From an uncultured bacterium (GTDB taxonomy: Bacteria > Margulisbacteria > WOR-1 > O2-12-FULL-45-9), in the NCBI GenBank assembly GCA_964568455.1, contig CAZMPJ010000002.1, positions 21,769 through 85,768 on the forward strand: a stretch of 64,000 nt of DNA. Reading direction: 5' to 3'. Below the pieces are notes generated by a model. That model did no database searches. It was not told the origin of the DNA and worked only from the letters and a program-made list of their open reading frames with translations. How positions within the stretch are numbered: the first letter of the stretch is position 1; each line of letters opens with the position of its first letter. Positions 6,869-48,536 of the stretch are shown here, piece by piece. The translations under genes and the position numbers were made by a program.

Positions 6869-9136
6869 ATGAAACATTCATTGATTATATTTTGTATCTT
6901 GTTTCTTGCTTCTTGTGTTTTAGCCGAAGAAATCCCAGTAAACATCAAAGCCGAAACCTTAAAATACATTGAAGATACTGGAGTTATTCACGCCACCGGT
7001 TCGGTTGAGGTTTACTTAAAAGACGCTTATATCAAGTCTGATTCCCTTTTTATTGATCCCAATACTAATATTGCAACTGCAGAGGGAAATGTTTATTTAA
7101 TTACCAAAAAACACCGAGCTAAAGCAGGCTATTTTACTTATAACATTAGTACCGAAGTTTCTTCCTTTGTTAGTTTTGAGGGGGTTGCCGGCCCAGGCCT
7201 TCATCTGAGGGTAGGCAAGCTGGAAGAAAGAAATAAAAATTATTTTGGCGAACAGGGATTTATTACTACTTGTGATTATGAAGAAGAGCATTATTATAAT
7301 GTTGCCCAAAAAGTTGAATATTATCCTGAAGATAAAATTATTGGCTATAACGTTACTACTTATGTGGGTAGGGTGCCTATTTTTTGGACACCCTATTTAA
7401 TCTATGATATCAACGAGAAGCAAAAAACTAACTGGCAGATTGGCCATAACGGTGTTGAAGGTGATTATGTTAAATCAAGCTGGCGATATCCTTTAGGCAT
7501 CCTTTACCTGGATTATATGGAAAAAAAGGGTTTTGGTAAAGGGACTAGTCTTGATTATGCGATTGCGGGGTTTGGGTTGGGAAGCCTTTATTTATATCAT
7601 TTGCAGGAAAATGATACTAATACTACTGACTGGATAACCAAAATCAGGCATGCAAAACAGCTTGATGCCAATACCAAACTCAATTTTAACCATGATTACA
7701 TAGTTACTTATTTAATTCCTTCCGGCAGGCGTGACCAAACTGCGGTTAATATTAATTTAAATCATAAAAGTGATTCGAAATGGAACATTAAAATGGATAG
7801 TCTTGATGATCGTATGGGTTCCTTGGGTAAATATACGTTAGGACTAAATCATTATTACGACAAAGCCACTACTAATTATTACTATGATTATAATTATTTA
7901 AAAAAAGATCCGGAATGGAGAAGACTTAGCCAGCGGTTTTATCATCGAAGACCTTTGGGCTTTAGCAATGGTAATTTTACTACTCGAATTAACTATTCCA
8001 GCAATAAGGCTAGTGAAGGGGCGCCGGCTGACCAGATCATGGAGCCAATGGTAGAATTTACTGGTAAGGAGAAATATTTTTCCTGGAAATTAACCGAAAA
8101 CTTGTATGTGGATGTAGACGGAGCAGAATATCAAGACGATGCCGACCACCAATATTTAGAAAAACTGCCAGAACTGGATATTAATTTAAATTCTTACAAT
8201 ACTCCGTTTTTTAGATTAAGGCCTTCTTTTGGTTATGGTTATTATCACGAAGTAAAATATTTAGCTGCCATGCGTGGCAACCGTGACTTTGCTACTTCAA
8301 GATACCGAGGTACTTTGAATGCGGATAAGAATTTTCGAGTGGGCCGATGGTCAAGGTTAACTTTGCGAGCAGGCATCGACCAATTTCAATATGGGCCTGG
8401 AGACCAATTATACGCTTATCGTGAAGGAGTAAATTTAAGGACAAATGCGGGAGGATTTTTCCGCAATAACATCGACTATAAAAAAGGCTATACCAATGGT
8501 AATACTCCTTTTTTGTTTGACCAAATCGGTACCCGCTATAATAGCATAAACGAAAAAATGACTTTTTATTATCTCAGTAATTTTAACTGGAGTACCACCG
8601 GCGGATATAATTGGCAAACCTATAAATGGTTTGATGTGATGACCAGTCTTTTAATCCGACCCAACAGTGTTTTTTATTGGAGTCTAAGGACTGGTTGGGA
8701 TCTTGAAAACACGGTTTATAAGGATTTGGTTCAACGTTTTACCGTAAATCCGGCTAGTTATCTGGGGTTGCAGTTTGCCACGGTTTCCAGTTTAAATAAT
8801 GGTGAAATGAGATCAGGCAGTATTTTATATAATTTTAAATTGCTTGAAGGGCAAAAAAATGAGTGGAAAGTACAACTTAGGCAGGTGCTGGATACTACCT
8901 CAAGAGAATTTAAGCTGCGTGATATAATGGTGGTTAAAGATTTACATTGTTGGCGGCTAACCTATACTTATTCAGATTACAGAAAAGAATTCAGCTTAAA
9001 AGTTAGCTTAGATGCTTTTCCTGATGATCCAGTTGGTTTTGCTACCGGCAAAGGTTTTCATTATGAGGGTGCGGAAAGAAGACTTAATGAGATGAAAAAT
9101 GAATTAAAACCCGAAGGATCAATTAAAAGGTATTAA
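6869..9136 (+). CDS. lptD: LPS assembly outer membrane protein LptD
   Basis: Signal peptide. OstA-like N-terminal region (IKAETLKYIEDTGVIHATGSVEVY..IKSDSLFID). The VPIFWTPYL motif matches the conserved LptD GPVPIFYSPY segment. Beta-rich 755-aa protein. Confidence 0.65.
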   Translation: MKHSLIIFCILFLASCVLAEEIPVNIKAETLKYIEDTGVIHATGSVEVYLKDAYIKSDSLFIDPNTNIATAEGNVYLITKKHRAKAGYFTYNISTEVSSFVSFEGVAGPGLHLRVGKLEERNKNYFGEQGFITTCDYEEEHYYNVAQKVEYYPEDKIIGYNVTTYVGRVPIFWTPYLIYDINEKQKTNWQIGHNGVEGDYVKSSWRYPLGILYLDYMEKKGFGKGTSLDYAIAGFGLGSLYLYHLQENDTNTTDWITKIRHAKQLDANTKLNFNHDYIVTYLIPSGRRDQTAVNINLNHKSDSKWNIKMDSLDDRMGSLGKYTLGLNHYYDKATTNYYYDYNYLKKDPEWRRLSQRFYHRRPLGFSNGNFTTRINYSSNKASEGAPADQIMEPMVEFTGKEKYFSWKLTENLYVDVDGAEYQDDADHQYLEKLPELDINLNSYNTPFFRLRPSFGYGYYHEVKYLAAMRGNRDFATSRYRGTLNADKNFRVGRWSRLTLRAGIDQFQYGPGDQLYAYREGVNLRTNAGGFFRNNIDYKKGYTNGNTPFLFDQIGTRYNSINEKMTFYYLSNFNWSTTGGYNWQTYKWFDVMTSLLIRPNSVFYWSLRTGWDLENTVYKDLVQRFTVNPASYLGLQFATVSSLNNGEMRSGSILYNFKLLEGQKNEWKVQLRQVLDTTSREFKLRDIMVVKDLHCWRLTYTYSDYRKEFSLKVSLDAFPDDPVGFATGKGFHYEGAERRLNEMKNELKPEGSIKRY

Positions 9137-9777
9137 TGAGAAATAAATTTTTTATATTCTTTATATTGTTGGTTTTTGTTGGGGGTTGTGCTAAGACAGT
9201 TACTCCTTTAGTAACTTTTGGAGAACAGATGATTGTAACGGTAACCATGCGGGGCACGATTGATGTTATTAATAGTCGCTATTTCTTGGTTTTGAGTTCC
9301 AGTTCCAGCCTAAATGTTCCTCTTCCTCCGCCGGATAATGTGGAATATGAAATGATTGAACCGGGCACGGAGCCAGTGCAAGGATCAGAAGAAGCTTATT
9401 ACACAGATTATTATTCTACCTGGAGCGGCTATTTAATTGCTGAGCCGGGTGGTTATTATCTTGTGCCTGGTCCATTTGTGCAAGGTCAAATTACTACTAG
9501 AGAATCTTTGGCTTTTATCGACCAGATCAATAATACTTTAACTTACAGTTTTGACGTAAGCAAGATATTTGGCACTACTGTTCCAGATGATATTTATTTT
9601 GATGTAGTCAGTGTTGATTGGCCAGATGGCCAGAAAAAACTATCGCAGGATCATTTAACTTCAACCAATGCTTATATTTCCAAAATTTCTGGTTCAATTA
9701 TTGAAATAGATGATGGAATAGATAGCGAGCTGGCAGCTGATCTTGATATAATAAGCTGCAAAGCAGAGATGCAATGA
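9136..9777 (+). CDS. hypothetical lipoprotein
   Basis: Signal peptide with a lipobox-like FVGGC. No recognisable domain. Confidence 0.4.
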   Translation: MRNKFFIFFILLVFVGGCAKTVTPLVTFGEQMIVTVTMRGTIDVINSRYFLVLSSSSSLNVPLPPPDNVEYEMIEPGTEPVQGSEEAYYTDYYSTWSGYLIAEPGGYYLVPGPFVQGQITTRESLAFIDQINNTLTYSFDVSKIFGTTVPDDIYFDVVSVDWPDGQKKLSQDHLTSTNAYISKISGSIIEIDDGIDSELAADLDIISCKAEMQ

Positions 9778-11138
9778 TGAGTATATTATCAGCTATTTTA
9801 TTAGCCTTAGCTTTTCCAAAAACTGCTTGGTTTTGGCTGGCTTGGGTTGCCTTGGTCCCGTTTTTTATAGTTTTATTTAAAACTTCTTCCTGGAAACAAG
9901 CTTTAGGCCGGGGTTTTGTTTTTGGTTTAGTTTTTTTTGGTATAAATTTATTCTGGATTAACACGCTTAACCGTTTTGTGGGTTATTGGGCGATACTGGG
10001 TTGGTTGGCCTTGATTGTTTTTCAGGCTTTATTCCTAGCTCTATTTGCCTTTTTAGCTTATTTCATAATAAGCAATGTGCAGAAAAAAACAATTAAATTA
10101 ATTGGCATTGCTTTAGTTTGGGTGGGGGTTGAATATCTACGAGCTTTGGGAATATTTGGTATAACTGGGGGTGGAGTGGGTTATACGCAAGCGCCTTTTA
10201 CACTTTTAATTCAAATTGCTTTTTTTACTTCGGTTTACGGGATAAGTTTTCTAGTGGTTTTATTTAATGCTGCTTTAGCCGCTTTTATTTTAAACCGTAA
10301 AAACTGGCTGGCATTACTGATTGCCATTGTTTTAATTGGGGCTTGCGTTGGTTATAGTGGCCAAGTTTTAGATCAAGATAAAACTGATTATATTGAATTA
10401 GCTTTAATCCAGCCCAATATTGATCAAATAGAAAAAATGAATCCAGCCAGTATTGGTAAGGTTTTTAAAGTCCACAAAGAGCTTAGTTTGCAGGCGGCAA
10501 AATCAAATCCTCAAGTCATTATCTGGCCGGAAACTTCCGTGTTTACTTATTTATTAAAAGACCAGGGTTATTTTGGAAGATTAAAAAAACTAGCGGCTAC
10601 GACCGAGGCTTGGCTAATTATTGGGACTCCTCATTATGAAAAATCAAACCAGTCTTATAATGCTATTGTTTCTATTTCCCCTTCCGGAGAAGTTGTTTCC
10701 ACTTATTATAAGCAGCACTTGGTGCCTTTTGGTGAATACTTGCCTTTTAGAAAAATATTATTCCCTTTGCTTAAAAGTGTGGGTTATTTTAATTATGACT
10801 ATGCTGAGGGAAAAAAATATAATAATTTAAAAGTTGACAATTTAAATTTAACTGTTTCTATTTGTTTTGAGTCAACCTTTCCCTGGTTAATTAAAAAAAG
10901 GGTGGGCCCGGATACTGATTTTATCTTAAATTTAACAAACGATGCCTGGTTTGATGATTCTTCTGCTCTTTATCAGCATTTGGATTCTAATATTTTCCGG
11001 GCAGTAGAAAACCGCAAGTATTTTGTGCAAGTAGGCAACACGGGGATCACTACTCTTATTGATCCTTACGGGAGAGTTTTACAGAAAACACAAGTTAATG
11101 AGCAGAAGGTGCTACAGATTAAGATACCGCTTCGCTAA
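9774..11138 (+). CDS. lnt: apolipoprotein N-acyltransferase
   Basis: Multi-TM N-terminus plus a CN-hydrolase domain carrying the E (WPETS), K and C (ICFEST) catalytic residues. Confidence 0.75.
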   Translation: MMSILSAILLALAFPKTAWFWLAWVALVPFFIVLFKTSSWKQALGRGFVFGLVFFGINLFWINTLNRFVGYWAILGWLALIVFQALFLALFAFLAYFIISNVQKKTIKLIGIALVWVGVEYLRALGIFGITGGGVGYTQAPFTLLIQIAFFTSVYGISFLVVLFNAALAAFILNRKNWLALLIAIVLIGACVGYSGQVLDQDKTDYIELALIQPNIDQIEKMNPASIGKVFKVHKELSLQAAKSNPQVIIWPETSVFTYLLKDQGYFGRLKKLAATTEAWLIIGTPHYEKSNQSYNAIVSISPSGEVVSTYYKQHLVPFGEYLPFRKILFPLLKSVGYFNYDYAEGKKYNNLKVDNLNLTVSICFESTFPWLIKKRVGPDTDFILNLTNDAWFDDSSALYQHLDSNIFRAVENRKYFVQVGNTGITTLIDPYGRVLQKTQVNEQKVLQIKIPLR

Positions 11139-35473: not shown

Positions 35474-36967
35474 ATGTCAGAAAAAAAATATGTAAAGTTT
35501 GCAGGGAAAATATTGATTATTGGCTGCGGTTCGGTTTCGCAATGTGCTATCCCTCTGATTATCCGCCACATTGATGTTGATCCTAAGCGAGTTACTATTA
35601 TGGATTTTGTAGATAATAGCCATCGAGTAAAAGATTCACTGGCTAAAGGCGTTAAATATGTTAATGATCGAGTTACGCAAGATAATTATCAACAATTGCT
35701 GGCAAAATATGTTGGTAAGGGCGATTTAATTGTTGATTTAGCCTGGAACATTGATTGTATTGCTATAGTTAAATGGTGTCGGGATAATGAGGTGCTTTAT
35801 TGCAATACTTCGGTAGAAGAATGGGATCCGTATAAAGATGCAGAAAGAAATGATCCAGGGAAATATACATTATATTCAAGGCATATGGAAATTAGAAGAA
35901 AACTGGAAGAATGGGGCAATGAAAATGTTACTACTGCCATTGTTGACCATGGTGCTAATCCAGGATTGGTTTCTCATTTTACCAAACATGCTTTAATTGG
36001 TATTGCAAAAAAGATTCTTGCGGAAAAACCAAAAGACGAAAGGGTTGAACCATTAAAAGCGGCTTTAAAAGATAAAAACTTTGCAAAATTAGGCCAATTA
36101 ACCGGAACCAAAGTTATTCATATTTCAGAGCGTGATACCCAGATTACTGATAAACCAAAACAGGTCAATGAATTTGTAAACACCTGGAGTATTGAAGGCT
36201 TTTTTGAAGAAGGGGTGGCGCCGTCCGAATTGGGGTGGGGCACACACGAAAAATATATTCCAGAAGGAACTTATTTTCACAAAGTTGGTCCGCAAAACCA
36301 GATTTGCCTTAAAACTATTGGTATGAAAACCTGGGTAAGGTCTTGGGTTCCTTGTGGTGAAATTACTGGAATGGTGGTTCGCCATGGCGAAGCTTTTAGT
36401 ATTTCTGATCGCTTAACTGTTTGGGAAAACGGCAAAGCAGTTTATCGACCCACTGTCCATTATGCTTACTGTCCTTCTAATGCAGCGATCAATTCTTTGC
36501 ATGAACTGGAAATGCGCCAATTTAATCTGCAAGAGAAGCAAAGAATTATGAACGATGAAATTATTGATGGCGAAGACCAGCTTGGAGTTCTTCTAATGGG
36601 CCACGATTTTAAGTCCTGGTGGTGCGGCAGCTTGCTTGATATTCACAGTGCCAGAAAATTGGTTTTAGGACAACAAGCCACCACCATGCAGGTAGCTATA
36701 TCAGTTGTGTCAGCTGCAGTTTGGATGATTAAAAACCCAAAAAGAGGATTTTTAATGCCAGACGATGTTGATCATGAGGCAGTTTTAGAAGTAGCCATGG
36801 ATTATATTAAGCCTTTTGTTTCAAAAGCAGTTGATTGGACCCCGCTTAAAAATCTAAATAGTAAATTTACTAAATTTGATATCCCAATGCCAACTGAAGA
36901 AGATGTTTGGCAGTTTACTACTTTTTTGGTAGACCATAATATGCGCGCAAGAGCTAAAAAAATATGA
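35474..36967 (+). CDS. hss: homospermidine synthase
   Basis: Strong matches to bacterial HSS: ERDTQ, VNTWSIEGF, ELGWGT, VYRPTVHYAY, QLGVLLMGH, DWTPL. N-terminal Rossmann GCGSVS. Confidence 0.8.
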   Translation: MSEKKYVKFAGKILIIGCGSVSQCAIPLIIRHIDVDPKRVTIMDFVDNSHRVKDSLAKGVKYVNDRVTQDNYQQLLAKYVGKGDLIVDLAWNIDCIAIVKWCRDNEVLYCNTSVEEWDPYKDAERNDPGKYTLYSRHMEIRRKLEEWGNENVTTAIVDHGANPGLVSHFTKHALIGIAKKILAEKPKDERVEPLKAALKDKNFAKLGQLTGTKVIHISERDTQITDKPKQVNEFVNTWSIEGFFEEGVAPSELGWGTHEKYIPEGTYFHKVGPQNQICLKTIGMKTWVRSWVPCGEITGMVVRHGEAFSISDRLTVWENGKAVYRPTVHYAYCPSNAAINSLHELEMRQFNLQEKQRIMNDEIIDGEDQLGVLLMGHDFKSWWCGSLLDIHSARKLVLGQQATTMQVAISVVSAAVWMIKNPKRGFLMPDDVDHEAVLEVAMDYIKPFVSKAVDWTPLKNLNSKFTKFDIPMPTEEDVWQFTTFLVDHNMRARAKKI

Positions 36968-38082
36968 GCGACGGTATTGAAAATTTAATTAGACGTAAGG
37001 TTGAGCAGCAAGGCTCACCGCTTATGCTGATTAGCCGCAAAACTCTGCGCCAGCAATATGAGCGCTTTACCCGTTATCTTTCTATGGTTACTCCTTATTA
37101 CGCGATTAAAGCTAATCCTCACCCAGAAATCATCAAATACTTTATAAAACTGGGAGCAGGTTTTGACGTGGCTAGCGCTGCGGAAATGAATTTGGTGCTT
37201 AGCTTAGGAGCTGACCCTAAAAAAATTATTTTTGCTAATACAGTTAAATCTAATGAAGATATTGTGAAGGCTAACAGGAAAAAAGTACGCTTTATGACTT
37301 TTGATAATGAATCCGAACTTTATAAGATTGCTAAACATTGTTCTGGAGTCAGAGTTTTAGTCAGAATTAAAGTTAGCAATGACGGCAGCACGGTTGAATT
37401 GTCCCGCAAGTTTGGCGCTGATCCTGATCAAGCTATCTTCCTTTTAAAAAAAGCCAAATCATTGGGGCTTAAGCCAGCTGGAGTTTCTTTTCACGTAGGC
37501 TCACAATGTGTTAATTTGAAAAATTTTCTTCAAGCGTTAGATCTTTGCGGCACAATTTTTAATGAGGCTAAGGGCGTAGGCTTAAAGTTAGATACACTTG
37601 ATATTGGTGGAGGGTTTCCCATTCGTCATTTTGACAGTGACGACCATATGACTTTAAAAGAGATGGCTAGACATTTGCGCAAAAAAATGAAAAGGTTGTT
37701 TGATAAAGATACTAAGTTTATTGCGGAACCAGGAAGATATTTAGCTGGCCCTGCCGGAACCTTGGTTACTCGGGTAGTGGGAAGGACCTTTCGCAATAAT
37801 CGCAATTTTTATTATATTGATGACGGTATTTACGCGGATTTTTCCGGTATGATTTTTGATCATTGCCGCTATGAATTTAAAACTCTGCGCCGCGGCCAAA
37901 AATTCTTAAGCACTATTGCTGGACCTACTTGCGACTCTTTAGATATCCTTTCGCATAACGAAGATTTACCCGAGCTTGAAGTAGGTAATATTGTTTACGT
38001 AAAAAATATTGGAGCTTACTCTTGTGCCTCCGCGGTTCCTAATTTCAATGGTTTTAAGCCCGCGAAAATCATTATGGTATAA
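36964..38082 (+). CDS. PLP-dependent ornithine/basic-amino-acid decarboxylase (ODC family, fold type III)
   Basis: PYYAIKANP (PLP lysine), a GGGFP glycine loop, and the C-terminal beta-barrel domain. Translationally coupled to hss, supplying putrescine. Confidence 0.75.
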   Translation: MSDGIENLIRRKVEQQGSPLMLISRKTLRQQYERFTRYLSMVTPYYAIKANPHPEIIKYFIKLGAGFDVASAAEMNLVLSLGADPKKIIFANTVKSNEDIVKANRKKVRFMTFDNESELYKIAKHCSGVRVLVRIKVSNDGSTVELSRKFGADPDQAIFLLKKAKSLGLKPAGVSFHVGSQCVNLKNFLQALDLCGTIFNEAKGVGLKLDTLDIGGGFPIRHFDSDDHMTLKEMARHLRKKMKRLFDKDTKFIAEPGRYLAGPAGTLVTRVVGRTFRNNRNFYYIDDGIYADFSGMIFDHCRYEFKTLRRGQKFLSTIAGPTCDSLDILSHNEDLPELEVGNIVYVKNIGAYSCASAVPNFNGFKPAKIIMV

Positions 38083-41035: not shown

Positions 41036-42190
41036 TTAGGGGTTTGACCAAGAAGCTCCATCCCATTTTGCAATATAAGCAAAGGGTGAAGTGACTTCCC
41101 AAGTAAAAGCTCCGCCAGCATATAAATTGCCAGAGCTGTTAAAAGCTAGTGTTTTTACGTAATCATTCAAGCCATCTCCTAGGGCAGACCAAGAAGATCC
41201 GTTCCACTTTGCAATACGGTTAACCGTAGTTGTTTCTGCGCTAGTAAAGTTTCCTCCAACATATAAATTTCCACCACTGTCAAAAGCCAGTGTATTTACA
41301 ATTCCATTTAAACCATCTCCCAGGGTAGACCAAACCAGGCCATTCCATTTGGCAATATAATTAGCGGAAAGACTGCCGGCAGTGGTAAAAACTCCGCCAA
41401 CGTATAAATTATCTGAACTATCAATAGCTAATGCATTTACATCTTGATTCAATCCTGCTCCTAGACCAAACCAAGATGATCCATCCCATTTTGCCACACG
41501 ATTAGCTGAAGTACTGCCGATAGCAGTAAAACTTCCTCCAATATATAAGTTTCCCGAGCTGTCAAAAGCCAGGGCATATACATTGGCAGAATTAATATTG
41601 CTAGATCCAACCGCAGACCAAGCAGCGGTGTTCCATTTAGCAAGATAAGCAGCTGAAACAGTACCGGCTGTAGTAAACCCTCCGCCAGCATATAAATTTC
41701 CAGCACTATCAAAAAGAAGACTTAGTACTGTTGAATCAAATCCAGCCCCTAAGGCAGACCAAGAAGAACCATTCCATTTAGCCGTGTAATTAAAAGCAGT
41801 GGTTAAAGTTGATTCCCAGGTAAAAGCTCCACCAGCGTGTAAATTGCCAGAACTGTCAAAAGCCAATGCGTTTACGTCTTTATCAAACCCATCTCCTAAG
41901 GCAGACCAGGTAGCTCCATCCCATTTGCCAATGTAATTAAGGGAAGTGGCCCCGGCTGTAACAAAAGAACCGCCAACATATAAATCTCCCGAACTATCAA
42001 AAGCAATTGCTTTGACAACACTATTTAAAGTAGAACCTGAACTTATGGTTGTAGTAGTACTAGTGGTGGTAGTTGTTGTGGTAGTGCCAGACTGTCCACA
42101 ACCTGTAGTATAAAAAACAAACAACAAACAACAAACAATAGCCAATATCAAAATACTAAATTTTTTCATAATAAATATTATAACATGCAA
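41036..42190 (-). CDS. surface lipoprotein with poly-Thr linker and about 7 beta-propeller-type repeats
   Basis: Signal peptide with Cys. A TTTTTTTTSTTTT linker. Repeated roughly 48-aa units (IAKWDGSSWSALG.G.N..VNALAFDSSGNLY.GG.FT). Confidence 0.5.
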   Translation of the reverse strand: MHVIIFIMKKFSILILAIVCCLLFVFYTTGCGQSGTTTTTTTTSTTTTISSGSTLNSVVKAIAFDSSGDLYVGGSFVTAGATSLNYIGKWDGATWSALGDGFDKDVNALAFDSSGNLHAGGAFTWESTLTTAFNYTAKWNGSSWSALGAGFDSTVLSLLFDSAGNLYAGGGFTTAGTVSAAYLAKWNTAAWSAVGSSNINSANVYALAFDSSGNLYIGGSFTAIGSTSANRVAKWDGSSWFGLGAGLNQDVNALAIDSSDNLYVGGVFTTAGSLSANYIAKWNGLVWSTLGDGLNGIVNTLAFDSGGNLYVGGNFTSAETTTVNRIAKWNGSSWSALGDGLNDYVKTLAFNSSGNLYAGGAFTWEVTSPFAYIAKWDGASWSNP

Positions 42191-42221
42191 AGAGATTTTT
42201 TAGGTATGTTATAATAAAAAT

Positions 42222-43424
42222 GTGAAACCAGAATTATTAATTCCAGCCGGAGATTTGGAAAAGCTTGAAACCGCAGTGCGGTTTGGGGCGGATGCGGTAT
42301 ATGTGGGGGGAGGGGATTTTTCTCTTCGGGCTGCACAAACCTCGTTTTCTCTTGATGATTTAAAAAAAGGGATTAAATTTGCTCATCAGCATAAAGTTAA
42401 AATCTATTTAGCCATTAATATCTTCGCTTTTGATGAAGACTTAAAACCCATGCTTGATTATTTAGACCAAGCAGTTAAACTGGGAATTGACGCGGCAATT
42501 ATTTCAGATCCTGGCTTTATATATATAGTAAAGCAGAAATATCCCAAACTAAAGATCCACTTAAGCACCCAGGCTAATAGTTTAAACTCTGAAACAGTTA
42601 AATTTTGGAAAGAGCAGGGAATTAAACGCATTGTCTTAGGCCGTGAATTAAGTTTAGACCAAATTAAAAACATTAGAAAAACGGTTCCAGATATAGAGCT
42701 TGAACTTTTTGTCCATGGTGCCATGTGTATGTCTTATTCTGGTCGTTGTCTGCTTTCAAAATTCATGACGGGGAGAAGTGCGAACCGAGGAGAATGTACT
42801 CATCCTTGCCGCTGGCAGTATCGTTTAAAAGAAATGGAGCGGCCGGATGAAGAATTTTTAATTGAGGAAGATGAACGCGGCACCTATATAATGAATTCAA
42901 AAGACCTTTGTATGATTGAGCATGTTGCTAAACTAATTGAAGCAGGTGTTAATTCATTTAAAATCGAAGGCCGCATGAAATCTGCCTACTATGTTTCTAT
43001 TGCCACTAAGATTTATCGCCAAGCCATTGATCAAAATCCAAAATATGATCCAGCTTGGAAATTCGAATTAGAAAATATTTCCCACCGCAATTATACGACT
43101 GGATTTTATTTAGATGAAGATGATCGGGAAAATGTTGGCGATAGCTCTTATCAGAGAAAATATGCTTTTGTTGGCGTAGTTGATGACTGCAACTCTAAAA
43201 AACAGGAATTAAAAGTTAAGGCCCGCAACTATTTTGCAGTTGGCGATGAGCTGGAGATAGTTGATCCAAAAATAGATGAAATCAGGCGGTTTAAAGTTCG
43301 AAAAGCTATTAATCAAGATGGTTTAGATGTGCAGAAAGTGCATAACCAGAATTATGTAAGCCTTACATATGATGGTAAGTACGACGTAAGTAAGTATTCA
43401 TTATTAAGAAGGAGAGTAAGTTGA
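42222..43424 (+). CDS. peptidase U32 family protein
   Basis: N-terminal PAGDLEKL..A...GADAVY(V/I)GG motif and a conserved central Cys-rich region. Confidence 0.8.
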   Translation: MKPELLIPAGDLEKLETAVRFGADAVYVGGGDFSLRAAQTSFSLDDLKKGIKFAHQHKVKIYLAINIFAFDEDLKPMLDYLDQAVKLGIDAAIISDPGFIYIVKQKYPKLKIHLSTQANSLNSETVKFWKEQGIKRIVLGRELSLDQIKNIRKTVPDIELELFVHGAMCMSYSGRCLLSKFMTGRSANRGECTHPCRWQYRLKEMERPDEEFLIEEDERGTYIMNSKDLCMIEHVAKLIEAGVNSFKIEGRMKSAYYVSIATKIYRQAIDQNPKYDPAWKFELENISHRNYTTGFYLDEDDRENVGDSSYQRKYAFVGVVDDCNSKKQELKVKARNYFAVGDELEIVDPKIDEIRRFKVRKAINQDGLDVQKVHNQNYVSLTYDGKYDVSKYSLLRRRVS

Positions 43425-44407
43425 AAACAGCAATTATTGGATCCCCGCAAGCAGGCCAGCAGGAATTATTTTGTCTTTTAACCCAGATAGATCTGGATAT
43501 GGTTAGGCAAAAACCATTGGATGTGCATTTGGGTATATGCGAGGTTAAAGATCCACGCATTGACCAATTGGTAAAAATATTTAATCCTAAAAAAATCACT
43601 TATGCCCGCATTGAGTATATGCTTTTGCCGGGTTTTAATCTTAAGCAAATGAAAAACGCAGATGAAATCTGCTGGGTTACTCTGCTAGAAAATGCAGAAG
43701 CTGATATTGCTAATTTTGTGGCCGAAATGATTATTTCTGACCTGATGCTAATTGAAAAACGACTGGAAAATATTGCTAAAGACCAGAAAAGAAAGTTTGA
43801 TCAGCAAAGGGAAAAAGAAAAACAATTCATGGAGCTTTGCAAAAAGCAATTAGATCAGGAAAAATCTTTGAGCCTTTTATCCTTTTCGCCAGAACAGGCA
43901 AAAGAGATTAAAACCTATCAATTTTTAACCATGAAGCCGATTATTATTGTAGTTAATGTGCCAGAGGATAAAATTAATGATTCAGCTATAACAGAAAACA
44001 TTATTTATCCAAGTGTGCAATTGAGCATTGGGCTGGAATCAGAAATTAATCAATTAGATCCAGCTGATCGCGGAGCTTTTATGCAGGAAATGGGGATTGA
44101 CCAGCCGGCAGTAGAGAAAATGTCGATCATGGCCTATGAGGGTCTGGGTTTAATTTCATTTTTTACCGTAGGGGAGGATGAGGTAAGGGCTTGGACTATT
44201 AGAAAAAACTCAACTGCAGCGCAAGCGGGTGGCGCCATTCATTCTGATATTGAAAAAGGCTTTGTGCGGGCAGAGATGTGTTGTTATCAAGATTTGCTGG
44301 CAGCGGGTTCAGAAGCAAAGTTAAAAGAAAAAGGTAAATACCACCTTAAAGGCCGCGATTATATTGTACAGGATGGCGATGTGTTAGCTTTTCGATTTAA
44401 TGTTTAG
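43421..44407 (+). CDS. YchF/OLA1-like protein with degenerate Walker A (pseudo-GTPase?)
   Basis: The C-terminal TGS domain is closely YchF-like (KGRDYIVQDGDVLAFRFNV). The N-terminal G1 position reads IIGSPQAGQQELF instead of GxPNVGKST. The protein is about 35 aa shorter than canonical YchF. Confidence 0.5.
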   Translation: MKTAIIGSPQAGQQELFCLLTQIDLDMVRQKPLDVHLGICEVKDPRIDQLVKIFNPKKITYARIEYMLLPGFNLKQMKNADEICWVTLLENAEADIANFVAEMIISDLMLIEKRLENIAKDQKRKFDQQREKEKQFMELCKKQLDQEKSLSLLSFSPEQAKEIKTYQFLTMKPIIIVVNVPEDKINDSAITENIIYPSVQLSIGLESEINQLDPADRGAFMQEMGIDQPAVEKMSIMAYEGLGLISFFTVGEDEVRAWTIRKNSTAAQAGGAIHSDIEKGFVRAEMCCYQDLLAAGSEAKLKEKGKYHLKGRDYIVQDGDVLAFRFNV

Positions 44408-44502
44408 CTTTGCTGAGAACAAAGATTTGAGATTTTGGGAATCCCGAAATATTCACGAAAGACCTAGGCGCTAAAACCCGAAGGAATTTTCTCAAAAACT
44501 CT

Positions 44503-44555
44503 AAAACCCAAATCATCCCGAACATTATTATAGTTTTTGGGAAGATTTGGGTTTT
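44503..44555 (+). promoter_or_regulatory. long imperfect hairpin within a structured 290-nt leader/intergenic region
   Basis: AAAACCCAAATCATCCCGAACA ... TTTTTGGGAAGATTTGGGTTTT forms a roughly 20-bp stem with one or two mismatches. Additional crossing complementarities lie on either side (CCCGAAAT/ATTTTCGGG and CACGAAA/TTTCGTG). Confidence 0.4.
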
Positions 44556-44701
44556 TGGATTTTCGGGCTGTTTCTTCGTGTTTTCGTGACTGTCAATCTA
44601 GTGAGCATTTCGTAATTTCGGATATTTGTGAATAAAAAACATTGAAATTTCTTAGAAAACCTGTCGAAATAGAAGTAGCAAAAGTAAAGGAGGAATTTAT
44701 C

Positions 44702-45208
44702 ATGGGAATAATTACGAATTCATTAACCAGTGCTTATTATTGTGCTAGGCGAGGGGTGCAGATTGTAAAAAAACAAAGCAATTATATGAAGGGTTTGCAT
44801 GCTTTTACTTGTTTATTTAGCCAGGCTTTGTTTTCACAAAAGGATATAACTATTAATGTTAAAAATAGGGAAATTAATTACGACGGTTATATTCCGGATT
44901 TCTGTAGAAGTGTATTGCCAAAAGGAATTACGCAGGCTTTAGAAAATAGGCAAATTGATGTAGTGCAAATAAGAGTTAAGAGCACAGTTGAAGATTCTTG
45001 TCCCGATGGAACCATTAAATATTTACTAAGGAATAGCTTCCGTGCTTTAGCCTTGCATGGCATAAAGGATATGTCGATTGAGTACAATCTTGCTAATCAA
45101 AGTGTAACCGGGCTTAACTTTTTTGTGGATGGTGTAGCGCAAATATCGCAAGCTCTGGGTGTTGAAAATGGGATTGTGATTGATATAGAGATTAGTCAAA
45201 GGAACTAA
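44702..45208 (+). CDS. hypothetical protein
   Basis: The start was moved to the ATG preceded by AAGGAGG. No recognisable motif. Translationally coupled (3-nt gap) to the downstream radical SAM gene. Confidence 0.35.
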   Translation: MGIITNSLTSAYYCARRGVQIVKKQSNYMKGLHAFTCLFSQALFSQKDITINVKNREINYDGYIPDFCRSVLPKGITQALENRQIDVVQIRVKSTVEDSCPDGTIKYLLRNSFRALALHGIKDMSIEYNLANQSVTGLNFFVDGVAQISQALGVENGIVIDIEISQRN

Positions 45209-45211
45209 CAA

Positions 45212-47176
45212 ATGTTTAGAGTTGCCCCCAAAACAGGAATAACCCCCCGTGGTAAGATTCTTTTTGCCAGTAGGATGACGGATCCTAAAGGCTTTGACAA
45301 GATATCTAGTAATTTGGGCTTCATGATACCTCCTTTACGAGACCATGGTTATGAAGTATTAGTTAGCCAAGCTAATGTGGGTCTTATGCGTAGTTCTGCG
45401 GGGTTTTTATTTATGGAAGATTTGCAAGCTGGAGAACGTTTTAGAGAAGACTTGGCGAGATCTGAAAAACAAGTGATTGAGACTATGCAAGAAGAAATAG
45501 ACGTTCATGAGCCGGATTTTGTGGCCTTTTCTGCATATGACATAAATGTTTTAAGTATTTTTAATATTGCTACTGCTTTAGCTAAAAGTAATCCCACGGT
45601 TGCGTTTGTTTTTGGCGGACATTTTATTACTATTAATCCGCAGGTGGTCAGAGATAATTTTACCGACTTTCCTAATATAATCATGATAAATGGAGAAGCC
45701 GAATTTGCTTTACCCCAAGCTTTAATGGCTTTTCAAGATTCCACAAAAATTGAATCACCAGGAATTTTTATTCAAAGGATGGATGCGCTTATTGGTGATA
45801 CTTTTGATCAGCGTGTAAGCCTTACCTCAGAAGAGCATGCTGGTTTAGAGTTTTATCTTGATGTGCAAGCAGACCAGTTAAGGTTTATGTTAACAGAATT
45901 TAATGAGCCAGGCGTTGATCTGTTTACTTCAAGAGGATGTTTTAGAGGTTGTTCTTATTGTGCTGCTAGTTCAGCCATAAGAAGTCGTTTTGTTACTTGG
46001 TCTGCGTCTTCTATTGTGGAACAAATTAGCCAGGCTTTTAGCTGGGCCAGAGAAAAAGTAGGTCTCCATAAATTAAATATTGGTTTGATAGATGATGATC
46101 GATTAAGATCACCTAGGATAATTAGCGAGCTTATGACGTTAATTAAAGCAAGCGACTTGCGCAACAAGATAAAATTGCATATGCAAGGATGCTTTTCTGG
46201 TTTAGTTGATGGAGAAGGGAATGTGCGAACAGATTTAATGGATGAAATGCAAGGTGTGGTTGGTTTAATAAATATTGGTGGGGATTTTTGGGACACAGAA
46301 GGACGTTTGCGAAATAGGGGTGGGGATGAAAGCAAGTTGTCTAATGCAAAAATTAGGGAAATTATAAAAGAGTTAGCCAAAAGAGAAATAGCGGCTCGCT
46401 TATATTGGCTTTTGGGTGACGAAAAAACAACCATTTCTGCCATGACCGAAACAGCTTTGTTTTTAAATGAGCTTTATCTTGATTTCGCTCCTTTTATAAA
46501 ACTTGATGTTCCTGAACCTGTTTTTCCCTATTCTGGCACTCCTCTTCGTCAGAGATTAGAAGCTTCAGCAGAAGGAAAAAAGCTTCTTAAGGTTGCCTCT
46601 CGGTTAGGTTCTTTTCCAATTTATGATTTTATTCTGCCTCCTGGAAAGTTAATCGCAAAGGTGTATAGGGATGTGTCTTTAAATTGTCATATGGTTGGGA
46701 GTGAAGTGACCCCTAGTGTTTTCGTAAATTATCTTTATCTCTTTAGCAAACAATGGCGTTCTAGGATGAGAGAAAATCAGAAAGATATATTAGATGAAGC
46801 TGTTGATTTATTGAAACAAGGTATTTCGGTTACACAAATAAGACAGTTCTTGCCGGAAATAGAAAAATTGCCTACCATTTTTAGGTTTGCCGAAGAAGAA
46901 CCTCGACAGTTTAGTATTGAAGAATTATTAGAAGCTTATCATGCCATGTTAAGTATTCCTGAATATTATGGTACACGTGAGCTTCTAAGGGCAGAAGAAT
47001 CAAGAAGAAACCCGATTTTAGCTAAATCGCACAGCGGCGAGATAGATCATAGAGGGAAAAAACTAAGAAAGAGACCCAACGACCCTTGTCCTTGTGCTAG
47101 TGGTAAAAAATATAAAAAGTGTTGTGGGGTGGGGAAAGTTGGAAAGAAAAAGAAGAAAAAGAAGAAGAAACAGTAA
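45212..47176 (+). CDS. B12-binding-domain radical SAM protein with C-terminal SEC-C zinc motif and poly-Lys tail
   Basis: Rossmann-like N-terminal domain. CxxxCxxC (CFRGCSYC) radical SAM cluster motif. C-terminal DPCPCASGKKYKKCCG matches the SecA SEC-C zinc-binding motif. Ends KKKKKKKKKQ. Confidence 0.55.
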   Translation: MFRVAPKTGITPRGKILFASRMTDPKGFDKISSNLGFMIPPLRDHGYEVLVSQANVGLMRSSAGFLFMEDLQAGERFREDLARSEKQVIETMQEEIDVHEPDFVAFSAYDINVLSIFNIATALAKSNPTVAFVFGGHFITINPQVVRDNFTDFPNIIMINGEAEFALPQALMAFQDSTKIESPGIFIQRMDALIGDTFDQRVSLTSEEHAGLEFYLDVQADQLRFMLTEFNEPGVDLFTSRGCFRGCSYCAASSAIRSRFVTWSASSIVEQISQAFSWAREKVGLHKLNIGLIDDDRLRSPRIISELMTLIKASDLRNKIKLHMQGCFSGLVDGEGNVRTDLMDEMQGVVGLINIGGDFWDTEGRLRNRGGDESKLSNAKIREIIKELAKREIAARLYWLLGDEKTTISAMTETALFLNELYLDFAPFIKLDVPEPVFPYSGTPLRQRLEASAEGKKLLKVASRLGSFPIYDFILPPGKLIAKVYRDVSLNCHMVGSEVTPSVFVNYLYLFSKQWRSRMRENQKDILDEAVDLLKQGISVTQIRQFLPEIEKLPTIFRFAEEEPRQFSIEELLEAYHAMLSIPEYYGTRELLRAEESRRNPILAKSHSGEIDHRGKKLRKRPNDPCPCASGKKYKKCCGVGKVGKKKKKKKKKQ

Positions 47177-47263: not shown

Positions 47264-47842
47264 ATGAGTATATTAGTACCAAAAAGAATTTTTTTAACTA
47301 AAGGGGTTGGCCGACATAAAGAAAGATTGGCTAGCTTTGAGATGGCGCTGCGGGATGCAGGTATTCAAGCAGTTAACTATGTTCAAGTTTCTAGTATTTT
47401 CCCTCCTGGTTGCAAACAAATTTCTAAAGATCAAGGTTTAAAATTAATTAAACCCGGAGAAATTTCTTTTATCGTCATGGCAAAAAATGCGACTGACGAA
47501 TCTCATCGCCTAATCTCTGCTTCGGTTGGCATGGCTATTCCTACTGATGTTACTTCTTATGGTTATCTAAGCGAACATCATGCAGAAGGGGCGACTGACG
47601 AAGAATGTGGTGAGTATGCCGAAGATATTGCCGCTCAAATGCTGGCAACTACTTTAGGCGTGCCTTTTGATGAAGACTCAAGTTGGGACGAAAGACAAGA
47701 TCAATGGAAACTTTCTGATCAAATTGTTAAAACTACTCATATAACCCAAAGTGCTATTGGCCAACGAGGAGGGTGGACTACTGTTGTAGCTGCGGCCGTG
47801 CTTTTGCTTGACCACCAAGTTCAAGATGAGCCTGCAAGTTAA
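47264..47842 (+). CDS. pdaD: pyruvoyl-dependent arginine decarboxylase
   Basis: ALRDAGIQAVNYVQVSS|IFPP matches the PdaD self-cleavage Ser-Ser site region. About 190 aa. Confidence 0.65.
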   Translation: MSILVPKRIFLTKGVGRHKERLASFEMALRDAGIQAVNYVQVSSIFPPGCKQISKDQGLKLIKPGEISFIVMAKNATDESHRLISASVGMAIPTDVTSYGYLSEHHAEGATDEECGEYAEDIAAQMLATTLGVPFDEDSSWDERQDQWKLSDQIVKTTHITQSAIGQRGGWTTVVAAAVLLLDHQVQDEPAS

Positions 47843-48536
47843 AGGATTCATTGAAACCTCTTTTTTAGATTGGGACGGCAAAATTGTTTCCACTCTTTAT
47901 GTTCCCGGCTGTAACTTTCGTTGTCCCTTTTGCCATAATTCTGGTTTAATTGAAAATCCAAATCATTATGATACTATTCCCTTGGAAAAAATTAAAAGTT
48001 TTATGTCAGAACATAAAGATTTTCTAGATGGGATTTGTTTAACCGGCGGAGAACCTTGTCTGCATAAAAATTCAGGATTAGACGACTTTTTAAAACAAAT
48101 TAAAGATTTGGGTTTTCAAATTAAATTTGATACCAATGGTACTGACCCGGAATATTTAAAAAAGTTAATTGATCAGCAGCTAATTGATTATGTTGCCATG
48201 GATATTAAGGGTCCACTGGATGAGCGTTATGACCGTTTAACCGGGATTAAAACTGATTTAGATAAAATTAAGCAAAGCATAAAAATTATTATGCAAAGCA
48301 ACCTTGCTTATGAATTTAGAACCACGGTAGTGCCTACGTTATTGGATAATAAAGATATGGAAGATATTGCTATTGAGCTAGAAGGCGCTAAAAAAATCGT
48401 GCTGCAGCAATTTGTAGCGGAAAATTGTTGGGACGAGGGCCTGCGGAAATTGAAACCTTATGAGAAGGAAAAATTAGAGGAAATGGTCAAGATCATGAAG
48501 CCTTATGTTTCCAATACCTTAATTAGGGGGGCGTGA
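47826..48536 (+). CDS. radical SAM activating-enzyme-like protein (NrdG/TIGR02495-like family)
   Basis: FLDWDGKIVSTLYVPGCNFRCPFCHN: an N-terminal CxxxCxxC located as in class III RNR / glycyl-radical activases. Start at the internal ATG 47826, overlapping the pdaD stop. Confidence 0.55.
   Translation: MSLQVKGFIETSFLDWDGKIVSTLYVPGCNFRCPFCHNSGLIENPNHYDTIPLEKIKSFMSEHKDFLDGICLTGGEPCLHKNSGLDDFLKQIKDLGFQIKFDTNGTDPEYLKKLIDQQLIDYVAMDIKGPLDERYDRLTGIKTDLDKIKQSIKIIMQSNLAYEFRTTVVPTLLDNKDMEDIAIELEGAKKIVLQQFVAENCWDEGLRKLKPYEKEKLEEMVKIMKPYVSNTLIRGA

What the first reader, a model, noticed from the sequence alone, without database searches (positions are those of the whole stretch)
43421..44407. YchF-like protein with a degenerate P-loop
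The C-terminal TGS domain is a near-canonical YchF signature (KGRDYIVQDGDVLAFRFNV). At the G1/Walker A position it reads IIGSPQAGQQELF instead of GxPNVGKST, so both the Lys and Ser/Thr needed for nucleotide binding are missing. The protein is also about 35 aa shorter than YchF. This looks like a pseudo-ATPase/GTPase derivative of a universally conserved translation-associated factor.
Basis: seen in the sequence. Interest (0 to 1): 0.55.

Follow-up and report, generated by a model that had tools for sequence, protein, structure and literature searches.

The report
Catalytically dead YchF paralogue (Margulisbacteria)
This gene encodes a well-conserved second copy of the ribosome-associated ATPase YchF that keeps the fold and the RNA/ribosome-binding parts but has lost every residue needed to hydrolyse ATP; related genomes also carry a normal YchF.

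Summary
ORF 43421-44407 (+) encodes a 328-aa protein that aligns end to end with YchF and has a near-canonical C-terminal TGS domain. It reads GSPQAGQQELF where YchF has GLPNVGKSTLF. The switch-I Thr, the Walker B DxxG, switch II and the loop carrying the catalytic His114 are also missing.

It is not an error or a pseudogene. The identical protein occurs in at least six independent assemblies. More than 110 homologues from Margulisiibacteriota, WOR-1 and Saganbacteria share GxPQxGQQ[QE]LF, and the Gln codons vary synonymously.

It is a paralogue. A fully canonical ychF lies 3.8 kb away on the same contig in one Margulis MAG, and on the same 1.58-Mb contig in another. Between those two genomes the dead copies are 62% identical and the canonical copies 60%, so the dead copy is under equally strong selection.

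A rough tree nests the family inside a divergent YchF-like clade in which Walker A Ser is Lys/Arg and the Walker B Asp is lost.

The G-like fold (pLDDT 92, TM 0.85 to YchF), the basic coiled-coil tip, the NxxE motif and the TGS domain are retained.

Most likely role (inferred): a hydrolysis-independent ribosome/RNA-binding factor. It is a new variant of a known kind, of moderate interest.

The parts
43421..44407 (+). Gene for the 328-aa YchF-like pseudo-ATPase (TTG start, TAG stop)
   Evidence: ORF list and sequence. End-to-end alignment to YchF 1jal. Pfam PF06071 only. TIGR00092 scores 204 bits, below the cut-off of 279. AF2 model pLDDT 92.3, TM 0.85 to YchF/OLA1 structures.
43410..43414 (+). 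Shine-Dalgarno-like AGGAG, 6 nt upstream of the TTG start
   Evidence: Read directly from the sequence. The start is supported by homologues that begin MK[IVT]xI[IL]G.
43439..43471 (+). Remnant of G1/Walker A: residues 7-17, GSPQAGQQELF (YchF has GLPNVGKSTLF)
   Evidence: G7 and G12 are invariant; P9, Q10, Q13, Q14, L16 and F17 are at least 90% conserved in the family. Gln codons vary CAA/CAG between members.
43622..43636 (+). Remnant of G3/Walker B: residues 68-72, LLPGF (YchF has DIAGL). The switch II segment that should follow is deleted.
   Evidence: The family consensus is LLPDF. The window protein and P0002 lack a further 13 aa that other members keep.
43685..43918 (+). Helical (coiled-coil) domain, residues 89-166, with a conserved basic tip (K120, K123, R124, K125, R130, K132, K134)
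   Evidence: DSSP of the model gives helices 89-120 and 124-145. K/R frequency is 82-99% at positions 120, 123, 124, 125 and 132. In the alignment K120 and K123 fall opposite E. coli K149 and K152. These belong to the basic tip that contacts 23S rRNA H62 (PMC11814078).
43955..43966 (+). Retained G4-type motif NVPE (YchF has NVNE, the NxxE motif), residues 179-182
   Evidence: N179 is invariant and E182 is at least 90% conserved in the family.
44150..44404 (+). C-terminal TGS / YchF-GTPase_C domain, residues 244-328
   Evidence: PF06071, E 1.2e-36, full-length match 1-84/84. It is the most conserved domain of the family, with 77.7% mean pairwise identity.
42222..43424 (+). Upstream peptidase-U32-family gene whose stop overlaps the TTG start by 4 nt (context only, probably co-transcribed)
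   Evidence: Pfam PF01136 and PF16325. The same arrangement is seen in independent assemblies. A U32 gene is also adjacent, but divergently oriented, in L084. It is absent next to other family members.

Best explanation
The gene encodes a conserved pseudo-ATPase paralogue of YchF that is specific to the Margulisbacteria lineage.

Shown:
- It has the three-domain YchF architecture: a G-like domain, an inserted coiled coil and a C-terminal TGS domain.
- The Walker A Lys and Ser/Thr, the switch-I Thr, the Walker B Asp/Gly, switch II and the loop carrying catalytic His114 are all substituted or deleted.
- It is under purifying selection as strong as that on the canonical YchF.
- In at least two related genomes it coexists with a fully canonical YchF.

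Inferred:
- It cannot hydrolyse ATP or GTP by the canonical mechanism, and probably does not bind Mg-nucleotide.
- It works as a nucleotide-independent, non-switching binder of the ribosome or of RNA. This rests on the parts that stayed most constrained: the basic tip of the coiled coil (the 23S rRNA H62 contact in E. coli YchF) and the TGS domain with the cleft between the two.
- It could modulate, or compete with, what canonical YchF does on the large subunit.
For: Architecture and fold:
- End-to-end alignment to YchF.
- AF2 model with pLDDT 92.3 and pTM 0.87, keeping all six core strands.
- Foldseek TM 0.79-0.88 to OsYchF1, E. coli YchF on the 50S, H. influenzae and T. thermophilus YchF, and human OLA1.

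Loss of the catalytic kit:
-.
- Pfam MMR_HSR1 is not detected, whereas it is in the canonical Margulis YchF.
- TIGR00092 scores 204-230 bits for the family against 447-455 for the canonical paralogue.

Selection:
- More than 120 clusters at 54-85% identity share GxPQxGQQ[QE]LF.
- Gln codons vary synonymously.
- Between the same two genomes the dead copies are 62.4% identical and the canonical copies 59.6%.
- The identical protein occurs in at least six assemblies.

Paralogy:
- A canonical ychF lies on the same 12-kb contig (L003).
- Both copies lie on the same 1,578,413-bp contig.
- The dead copy is only 33% identical to the canonical copy of its own genome.
- In the NJ tree all canonical YchFs, including the Margulis ones, group at 100% bootstrap to the exclusion of the family.

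Retained binding parts:
- The basic tip has 82-99% K/R at five positions. It matches the H62-binding tip of E. coli YchF, whose helical domain is required for function (PMC11814078).
- TGS is the most conserved domain (77.7%), whereas in the canonical paralogues the G domain is (79.0%).
Against: - No experiment or structure shows ribosome or RNA binding for this family. That part is an inference from conserved surfaces.
- G4 (N179 invariant, E182 at least 90%) and a G5-like SAxLExE are retained. The substituted P-loop is itself nearly invariant (PQxGQQ). Both facts could mean that some ligand is still bound in the old nucleotide pocket.
- The N-terminal G-like part is still 65.6% identical on average. 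That is more than a mere scaffold might need.
- Coexistence with canonical YchF is shown in two relatives, not in the window's own genome.
- The tree is a simple neighbour-joining tree on corrected p-distances. Nesting inside the GK[KR]T clade has only 75% bootstrap.
Confidence: 0.62

Rival explanations
1. The old nucleotide pocket is not dead but re-tooled. The invariant PQxGQQ loop, together with the retained NxxE and G5-like motifs, binds a nucleotide or nucleotide-like ligand (ATP, ADP, adenosine or (p)ppGpp) without Mg2+ and without hydrolysis. The protein would then be a ligand sensor on the ribosome (a 'class II' pseudo-GTPase).
For: - The substituted P-loop is as conserved as a functional motif: G7 and G12 invariant; P9, Q10, Q13, Q14 at least 90%.
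- N179 of NxxE is invariant and E182 is at least 90% conserved.
- The sister clade shows perfect co-variation. All 24 representatives with Walker A Ser replaced by Lys/Arg/His/Gln have also lost the Walker B Asp. That looks like a coordinated redesign of the Mg2+ site, not decay.
- YchF homologues can bind ppGpp (PDB 7y9i, listed).
Against: - Walker A Lys, the residue most generally required for phosphate binding in P-loop NTPases (established knowledge), is Gln.
- Switch I and switch II are deleted.
- No profile recognises a GTPase domain.
- Asn of G4 also has a structural role in GTPase folds, so its retention is not specific evidence for base binding.
Confidence: 0.22
2. In the window's own genome this is the only YchF homologue. 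The universal factor itself would then have lost its ATPase, with orthologue replacement by the dead copy after loss of the canonical gene.
For: - No second YchF-like sequence in the 64-kb window (tblastn).
- The window protein is the most reduced form of the family: 328 aa, a further 13-aa deletion, and LLPGF in place of LLPDF.
- No canonical YchF with the contig length of the 1.77-Mb contig that carries family member P0030 appeared among the 120 best canonical hits. This is a weak negative.
Against: - Canonical ychF is present together with the dead copy in both relatives where this could be checked.
- Canonical YchFs named Margulisiibacteriota or Saganbacteria are numerous.
- 64 kb is a small part of a genome.
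Confidence: 0.12
3. Artefact or decaying pseudogene: a sequencing or assembly error, or a recently inactivated ychF copy drifting neutrally.
For: None beyond the absence of the canonical motifs.
Against: - Identical 328-aa protein in at least six independent assemblies.
- Intact ORF with a Shine-Dalgarno sequence.
- More than 120 homologue clusters, with 44 invariant columns in a 47-sequence sample of them.
- Same divergence as the canonical paralogue between the same genomes.
- Synonymous variation at the Gln codons.
- High-confidence fold.
Confidence: 0.01

Closest known systems
YchF / OLA1 (TIGR00092, COG0012; Obg family, TRAFAC class P-loop NTPases)
   Same: - Same three-domain architecture and fold (TM 0.79-0.88).
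- 31% identity over the full length to H. influenzae YchF.
- Near-canonical TGS/YchF_C domain.
- NxxE in place of NKxD.
- Basic tip on the coiled coil.
   Different: - Walker A Lys and Ser/Thr, the switch-I Thr, Walker B DxxG, switch II and the His114 loop are all missing.
- 35 aa shorter.
- Below the TIGR00092 cut-off.
- Coexists with a canonical YchF as a distant paralogue, 33% identical within one genome.
- Not in the uvrD-ychF-rpsF-ssb-rpsR-rplI context of the canonical Margulis gene.
Divergent YchF-like clade with GK[K/R/H/Q]T Walker A and L-x-P in place of DxxG (metagenomic; Verrucomicrobiota, Gemmatimonadetes, Elusimicrobia, 'Theseobacter'; annotated either 'YchF' or 'DUF933 domain-containing protein')
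   Same: - Closest relatives by score, at 41-46% identity.
- The family nests inside this clade in the NJ tree (75% bootstrap).
- Shared GxPQxG, LLTG, PKKTTYA and LLPD motifs, and the shared loss of Walker B Asp and switch II.
   Different: - That clade keeps the Walker A Lys and, in 22 of 25 non-Ser/Thr representatives (the 24 K/R/H/Q ones plus the GKEE Margulis member P0121), the catalytic His.
- The Margulis family has lost both.
- TIGR00092 scores 242-280 bits in that clade against 204-230 in the Margulis family.
PseudoGTPases (GTPase-fold domains that lack nucleotide-binding or catalytic motifs, e.g. the p190RhoGAP pG1/pG2 domains, PMC5593906)
   Same: A GTPase fold kept under selection while the G motifs are lost.
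   Different: The described examples are eukaryotic, mostly small-GTPase-like domains. This is a bacterial Obg-family (TRAFAC) protein. None of the full-text searches combining YchF or DUF933 with such terms found a paper describing such a YchF.
DRG/Rbg (Obg-family, TGS-containing GTPases) and the archaeal 'YchF-related putative GTPase' PRK09602
   Same: G domain plus TGS domain. Weak structural or profile similarity: Rbg2 in 7nrc at TM 0.45, PRK09602 at E 0.057.
   Different: Much more distant than YchF proper, so not candidates for membership.

Membership tests
YchF/OLA1 (TIGR00092) | Three-domain architecture: G domain with an inserted alpha-helical coiled coil and a C-terminal TGS domain | tested here: met
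   End-to-end alignment. AF2 secondary structure. Foldseek TM 0.79-0.88 to nine YchF/OLA1 entries.
YchF/OLA1 (TIGR00092) | G1 / Walker A GxxxxGK[ST] | tested here: not met
   GSPQAGQQE in the window. The Lys position is Gln in about 113 of 117 family members, and there is no GK[ST] anywhere in the protein.
YchF/OLA1 (TIGR00092) | G2 switch-I Thr (PFCTIEPN) and G3 / Walker B DxxG followed by switch II | tested here: not met
   The switch-I position reads RQKPLDVH, with no Thr or Ser. G3 reads LLPGF and the switch II segment is deleted.
YchF/OLA1 (TIGR00092) | Catalytic His114 (E. coli numbering) in the loop after beta4 | tested here: not met
   The 12-residue segment aligned to NDDIVHVAGK is deleted in every sampled family member. 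His114 was identified from the H114A chain 8kie_y.
YchF/OLA1 (TIGR00092) | G4 NxxE (the YchF-specific replacement of NKxD) | tested here: met
   NVPE at residues 179-182. N179 is invariant and E182 is at least 90% conserved.
YchF/OLA1 (TIGR00092) | Curated whole-protein score (NCBIfam equivalog cut-off 279.2 bits) and Pfam MMR_HSR1 plus YchF-GTPase_C | tested here: not met
   204.2 bits. Only PF06071 is found. The canonical Margulis paralogue scores 455 bits and has MMR_HSR1.
YchF/OLA1 (TIGR00092) | ATP binding and ribosome-stimulated ATP hydrolysis | not testable with these tools
   Needs biochemistry. The sequence predicts no canonical hydrolysis.
YchF/OLA1 (TIGR00092) | Single-copy orthologue of the universal ychF gene | tested here: not met
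   In two related genomes a canonical ychF is present as well. The family groups outside the canonical clade. Not testable for the window's own genome.
PseudoGTPase / pseudo-NTPase (concept) | GTPase-type fold retained | tested here: met
   pLDDT 92.3, with core strands at 2-7, 36-42, 62-68, 82-88, 174-179 and 198-201. Foldseek hits.
PseudoGTPase / pseudo-NTPase (concept) | One or more G motifs required for binding or hydrolysis are missing, and the protein is under purifying selection | tested here: met
   G1, G2, G3 and the catalytic His are lost. Divergence equals that of the canonical paralogue. The family is conserved.
PseudoGTPase / pseudo-NTPase (concept) | Experimentally shown lack of nucleotide binding (class i) or of hydrolysis only (class ii) | not testable with these tools
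   No biochemical data, and no paper found.

The most novel reading that the evidence does not exclude
The Margulis GQQ family and its GK[K/R]T sister clade together form an unrecognised, ancient paralogous lineage of YchF ('YchF2'), present beside the canonical factor.

In this lineage the Mg2+/gamma-phosphate machinery was redesigned stepwise rather than lost at random:
- First, Ser became Lys/Arg together with loss of the Walker B Asp.
- Then Lys became Gln together with deletion of the His loop.

On this reading the proteins bind a different or Mg-free ligand such as (p)ppGpp or ADP. They would act as non-hydrolysing sensors or antagonists at the YchF site of the 50S subunit (uL14/bL19/H62), for example as constitutive anti-association or hibernation-type factors.
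Probability: 0.2. Interest if true: 0.7.

Novelty: new variant of a known kind. Interest (0 to 1): 0.45.

Why it matters
- YchF/OLA1 is one of the few universally conserved NTPases, and its role is still debated. A natural ATPase-less version that evolves as slowly as the real one says that part of what the YchF scaffold does needs no nucleotide hydrolysis. It also offers a ready-made separation-of-function variant for testing what the coiled-coil tip and the TGS domain do on the ribosome.
- Bacterial pseudo-GTPases are hardly described.
- There is a practical point for annotation. These paralogues are labelled either 'DUF933 domain-containing protein' or 'ribosome-binding ATPase YchF'.
- Members of the sister clade score right at the TIGR00092 cut-off (279.7 against 279.2 bits). 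They can therefore be mistaken for, or counted as duplicates of, a gene widely used as a single-copy phylogenetic marker. That last point rests on my own knowledge of marker sets and was not tested here.

Tried and rejected
1. Sequencing error, frameshift or shifted P-loop. Rejected.
2. Sole, degenerated orthologue. This was my working idea until the tblastn showed a canonical ychF on the same contig in L003. The same-contig result confirmed it.
3. Conserved operon as a clue to function. Neighbourhoods differ: leuD/leuB in L001; a histidine kinase and dTDP-sugar isomerase in L091; a Na/H exchanger in L093. U32 peptidase is adjacent only in the window lineage and in L084. No stable partner gene emerged.
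4. GTDB genome scan for taxonomic breadth. It is therefore not a census. L005 is labelled 'Proteobacteria bacterium', which may be a binning or naming issue.
5. Attempt to find the canonical YchF of the window's own organism by looking up candidate canonical proteins. The samples differ from those that carry the window's gene, so this stays unresolved.
6. First tree attempt with Biopython's BLOSUM distance calculator timed out. It was redone with numpy distances.
7. Literature. No paper combined YchF with pseudoGTPase or with Margulisbacteria, and the five papers that mention DUF933 do not, by title and abstract, concern such proteins (I did not read them).
8. Rfam scan of 42000-46000. Only sub-threshold miRNA-precursor look-alikes on the downstream hairpin.
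9. No single remaining query could have settled co-occurrence in the sister clade.
Full report
**Observation.**
The ORF at 43421-44407 (+) is real and encodes 328 aa. It starts at a TTG six bases after an AGGAG, and the start overlaps the stop of an upstream peptidase-U32-family gene by 4 nt. The N-terminus is MKTAIIGSPQAGQQELF and the C-terminus KGRDYIVQDGDVLAFRFNV.

Pfam recognises only the YchF C-terminal/TGS domain (PF06071, residues 244-327, E 1.2e-36) and no GTPase domain. The NCBIfam YchF equivalog TIGR00092 scores 204 bits, below its cut-off of 279.

phmmer against PDB sequences aligns residues 2-328 with residues 4-363 of H. influenzae YchF (1jal, E 7e-50). In that alignment GSPQAGQQELF sits opposite GLPNVGKSTLF. 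The protein has no GK[ST] or DxxG anywhere, and the other two frames around the P-loop are closed.

**What else is missing.**
A family alignment with H. influenzae YchF as reference shows further losses:
- The switch-I segment PFCTIEPN is replaced by a shorter RQKPLDVH with no Thr.
- DIAGL (Walker B/G3) is LLPGF, and the switch II segment GASKGEGLGNKF is deleted.
- The 12-residue loop NDDIVHVAGK is deleted. It contains the catalytic His114 of E. coli YchF, the residue mutated in the H114A complex 8kie.

These deletions, plus about 7 residues after G4, account for the 35-residue shortfall.

Two motifs are retained. One is the YchF-type G4 motif NxxE (NVPE; N179 invariant, E182 at least 90%). 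The other is a G5-like SAxLExE.

**Not an artefact, not a pseudogene.**
- The identical 328-aa protein is encoded on contigs assembled independently from at least six samples, each time behind the same U32 gene where the contig reaches that far.
- The large protein search returned more than 120 clusters at 54-85% identity, mostly 341 aa. They are named 'DUF933 domain-containing protein' from Candidatus Margulisiibacteriota, WOR-1 or Saganbacteria, or 'ribosome-binding ATPase YchF' by JGI. None has a precomputed GTPase-domain hit.
- In these proteins the motif is GxPQxGQQ[QE]LF. The Lys position is Gln in about 113 of 117, with a few His or Arg.
- One WOR-1 member, found as a cluster representative, has GKEE.
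- The Gln codons vary between CAA and CAG among members.
- A 47-sequence alignment has 44 invariant columns and 70% mean column identity.

**It is a paralogue.**
While testing synteny I found that locus L003 carries two YchF-like genes on the same strand. L003 is a Margulisiibacteriota MAG contig of 12 kb. The GQQ-type gene is at 4109-5131. A fully canonical YchF is at 8925-10010, with GLPNVGKSS, PFCTIDPN, DIAGLVKGASRGEGLGNKF, IVHVEG and NVDE.

Using that canonical protein as a query returned many canonical YchFs named Margulisiibacteriota or Saganbacteria. One of them (P0350) lies on the same 1,578,413-bp JGI contig as the GQQ-type P0077. The canonical copy is at 0.90 Mb and the GQQ-type copy at 1.45 Mb.

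Within a genome the two copies are only 33% identical. Between these two genomes the GQQ copies are 62.4% identical and the canonical copies 59.6%. The dead copy therefore evolves no faster than the universal factor.

The 64-kb window holds no second YchF. Whether the window's own genome has one could not be tested.

**Origin.**
The exhaustive representative search found 9051 relatives. At 50% identity the Margulis family collapses into essentially one full-length cluster (plus a few short fragment representatives). The next-best hits (41-46% identity, 335-369 aa) are divergent YchF-like proteins.

Many of these have GK[K/R/H/Q]T in Walker A and L-x-P in place of DxxG, but keep the His loop. 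Named examples come from Verrucomicrobiota, 'Theseobacter', Gemmatimonadetes and Elusimicrobia.

Among 140 representatives, all 24 with a non-Ser/Thr residue (K/R/H/Q) after the Lys lack the Walker B Asp. Of the 115 with Ser/Thr, 109 have Asp.

A neighbour-joining tree with 100 bootstraps gives:
- GQQ+GKEE family: 100%.
- Family plus GK[KR]T clade: 75%.
- All canonical YchFs (Margulis, Nitrospirota, Firmicutes, Haemophilus): 100%.

TIGR00092 scores fall in the same order: 447-455 for canonical Margulis, 336-362 for divergent proteins with intact motifs, 242-280 for GK[KR]T, and 204-230 for GQQ.

The family thus looks like the end-member of a stepwise erosion, or redesign, within an older paralogous lineage. 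It is not a recent duplicate of the Margulis ychF. The tree method is crude, so this is provisional.

**Structure and what stayed constrained.**
AlphaFold2 with the family alignment gives a confident model (pLDDT 92.3, pTM 0.87). It has the six core strands of the G fold, a long two-helix coiled coil (89-120 and 124-145) and the TGS domain. Foldseek matches nine YchF/OLA1 entries (15 chains/rows) with TM 0.79-0.88, including E. coli YchF on the 50S subunit. The next class of hit (Rbg2) is at TM 0.45.

Mean pairwise identity by domain:

| Domain | GQQ family | Canonical Margulis-type YchF |
|---|---|---|
| G or G-like, N part | 65.6% | 79.0% |
| Helical | 49.8% | 49.7% |
| G or G-like, C part | 55.9% | 61.6% |
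| TGS | 77.7% | 69.9% |

The strongest constraint has moved from the G domain to the TGS domain.

The tip of the coiled coil is conserved and basic, with K/R at 82-99% of members at positions 120, 123, 124, 125 and 132. In E. coli YchF the equivalent tip (K149, K152, K156, K159) contacts 23S rRNA helix H62. The helical domain docks on uL14/bL19 and is required for function (PMC11814078).

**Mechanism (inference).**
With Walker A Lys/Ser, the switch-I Thr, the Walker B Asp, switch II and the catalytic His all gone, canonical Mg-ATP binding and hydrolysis are not expected. P-loop mutants P11/N12 already make E. coli YchF ATPase-deficient (PMC8138138).

The parts that bind the ribosome or RNA are kept. 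I therefore consider a hydrolysis-independent, non-switching ribosome/RNA-binding factor the most likely role. It would act beside, or against, canonical YchF. I put the identity as a conserved pseudo-ATPase paralogue at about 0.85-0.9, and the ribosome/RNA-binding mode of action at about 0.5.

The main rival is that the nearly invariant PQxGQQ loop, with the retained NxxE, still binds a ligand without Mg2+. The coordinated changes in the sister clade keep this open.

**Context.**
There is no conserved operon. The U32 gene is adjacent in the window lineage, where it is translationally coupled, and in L084, where it is divergent.

The canonical Margulis ychF, by contrast, sits in a conserved uvrD-ychF-(...)-rpsF-ssb-ssb-rpsR-rplI-uvrC block.

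**Known or new.**
No curated family separates these proteins. Full-text searches for YchF with pseudoGTPase or Margulisbacteria, for DUF933, and for bacterial pseudoGTPases turned up no paper that, by title and abstract, describes such proteins.

I rate it a new variant of a known kind. It is of moderate interest, because a canonical YchF coexists and the more dramatic reading (the universal factor itself inactivated) is not supported.

Noticed in passing
Proteins P0124-P0261; loci L008 10001-11059, L011 1200-2279, L029 10001-11044: A sister clade of YchF-like proteins from several phyla has Walker A GK[K/R/H/Q]T. All 24 such representatives also lack the Walker B Asp (L-x-P instead of DxxG), while 109 of the 115 representatives with GK[S/T] keep it. 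Most of this clade still keep the catalytic His. This looks like a coordinated redesign of the Mg2+ site.
   Followed up: partly
L083 1970-10321; L095-L102 (e.g. L095 998-7086): The canonical ychF of Margulisbacteria sits in a conserved block: uvrD - ychF - (small genes) - rpsF - ssb - ssb - rpsR - rplI - uvrC, with two tandem ssb genes. The dead paralogue is never in this context.
   Followed up: partly
window 42222-43424 (+); L084 4677-5870 (-): A peptidase-U32-family gene (PF01136 plus PF16325) overlaps the start of the YchF-like gene by 4 nt in the window. A U32 gene is also the divergent neighbour of the family member on the 1.58-Mb JGI contig, but not next to five other members. U32 proteins include rRNA and tRNA hydroxylation factors (my own knowledge), so a link to the ribosome is conceivable but unsupported.
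   Followed up: partly
window 44405-44645 (+): The 234-nt spacer downstream of the gene folds into one long imperfect hairpin (MFE -72.4 kcal/mol, z = -4.5 against shuffles). Rfam gives only sub-threshold matches to miRNA-precursor models, meaning a generic long hairpin. There is no second copy in the window.
   Followed up: partly
window 45212-47176 (+): A 654-aa protein with weak B12-binding and radical-SAM matches carries a C-terminal SEC-C zinc motif followed by a run of ten Lys (…GKVGKKKKKKKKKKQ).
   Followed up: no
window 36964-38082 (+) and 47264-47842 (+): Two unrelated basic-amino-acid decarboxylases lie within 11 kb: a PLP-dependent Orn/DAP/Arg decarboxylase and a pyruvoyl-dependent arginine decarboxylase. 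The latter is followed by a small radical-SAM/4Fe-4S activase-like gene at 47808-48536.
   Followed up: no
window 41036-42190 (-): A 384-aa predicted secreted or lipoprotein has a poly-Thr/Ser linker (TTTTTTTSTTTT) followed by highly regular beta-propeller repeats (…AFDSSGNLY.GG.F…KW.G..WS.LG…).
   Followed up: no
proteins: Annotation is inconsistent. The dead paralogues are called 'DUF933 domain-containing protein' (NCBI) or 'ribosome-binding ATPase YchF' (JGI). A GKHT-type relative scores 279.7 bits against the TIGR00092 cut-off of 279.2 and is named 'redox-regulated ATPase YchF'. Such paralogues could be miscounted where ychF is used as a single-copy marker.
   Followed up: no
L093 6606-10759: Next to one family member lies what looks like a mobile or defence island: HTH plus M78 peptidase, a Beta_protein family gene, a phage P4 cII-like gene, an MT-A70 methyltransferase and a BglII-type endonuclease.
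   Followed up: no
L005 893-1915: A typical family member (54% identical, GLPQAGQQEFF) sits in a MAG labelled 'Proteobacteria bacterium' (LacPavin). Either the label or bin is wrong, or the family reaches beyond Margulisbacteria.
   Followed up: no
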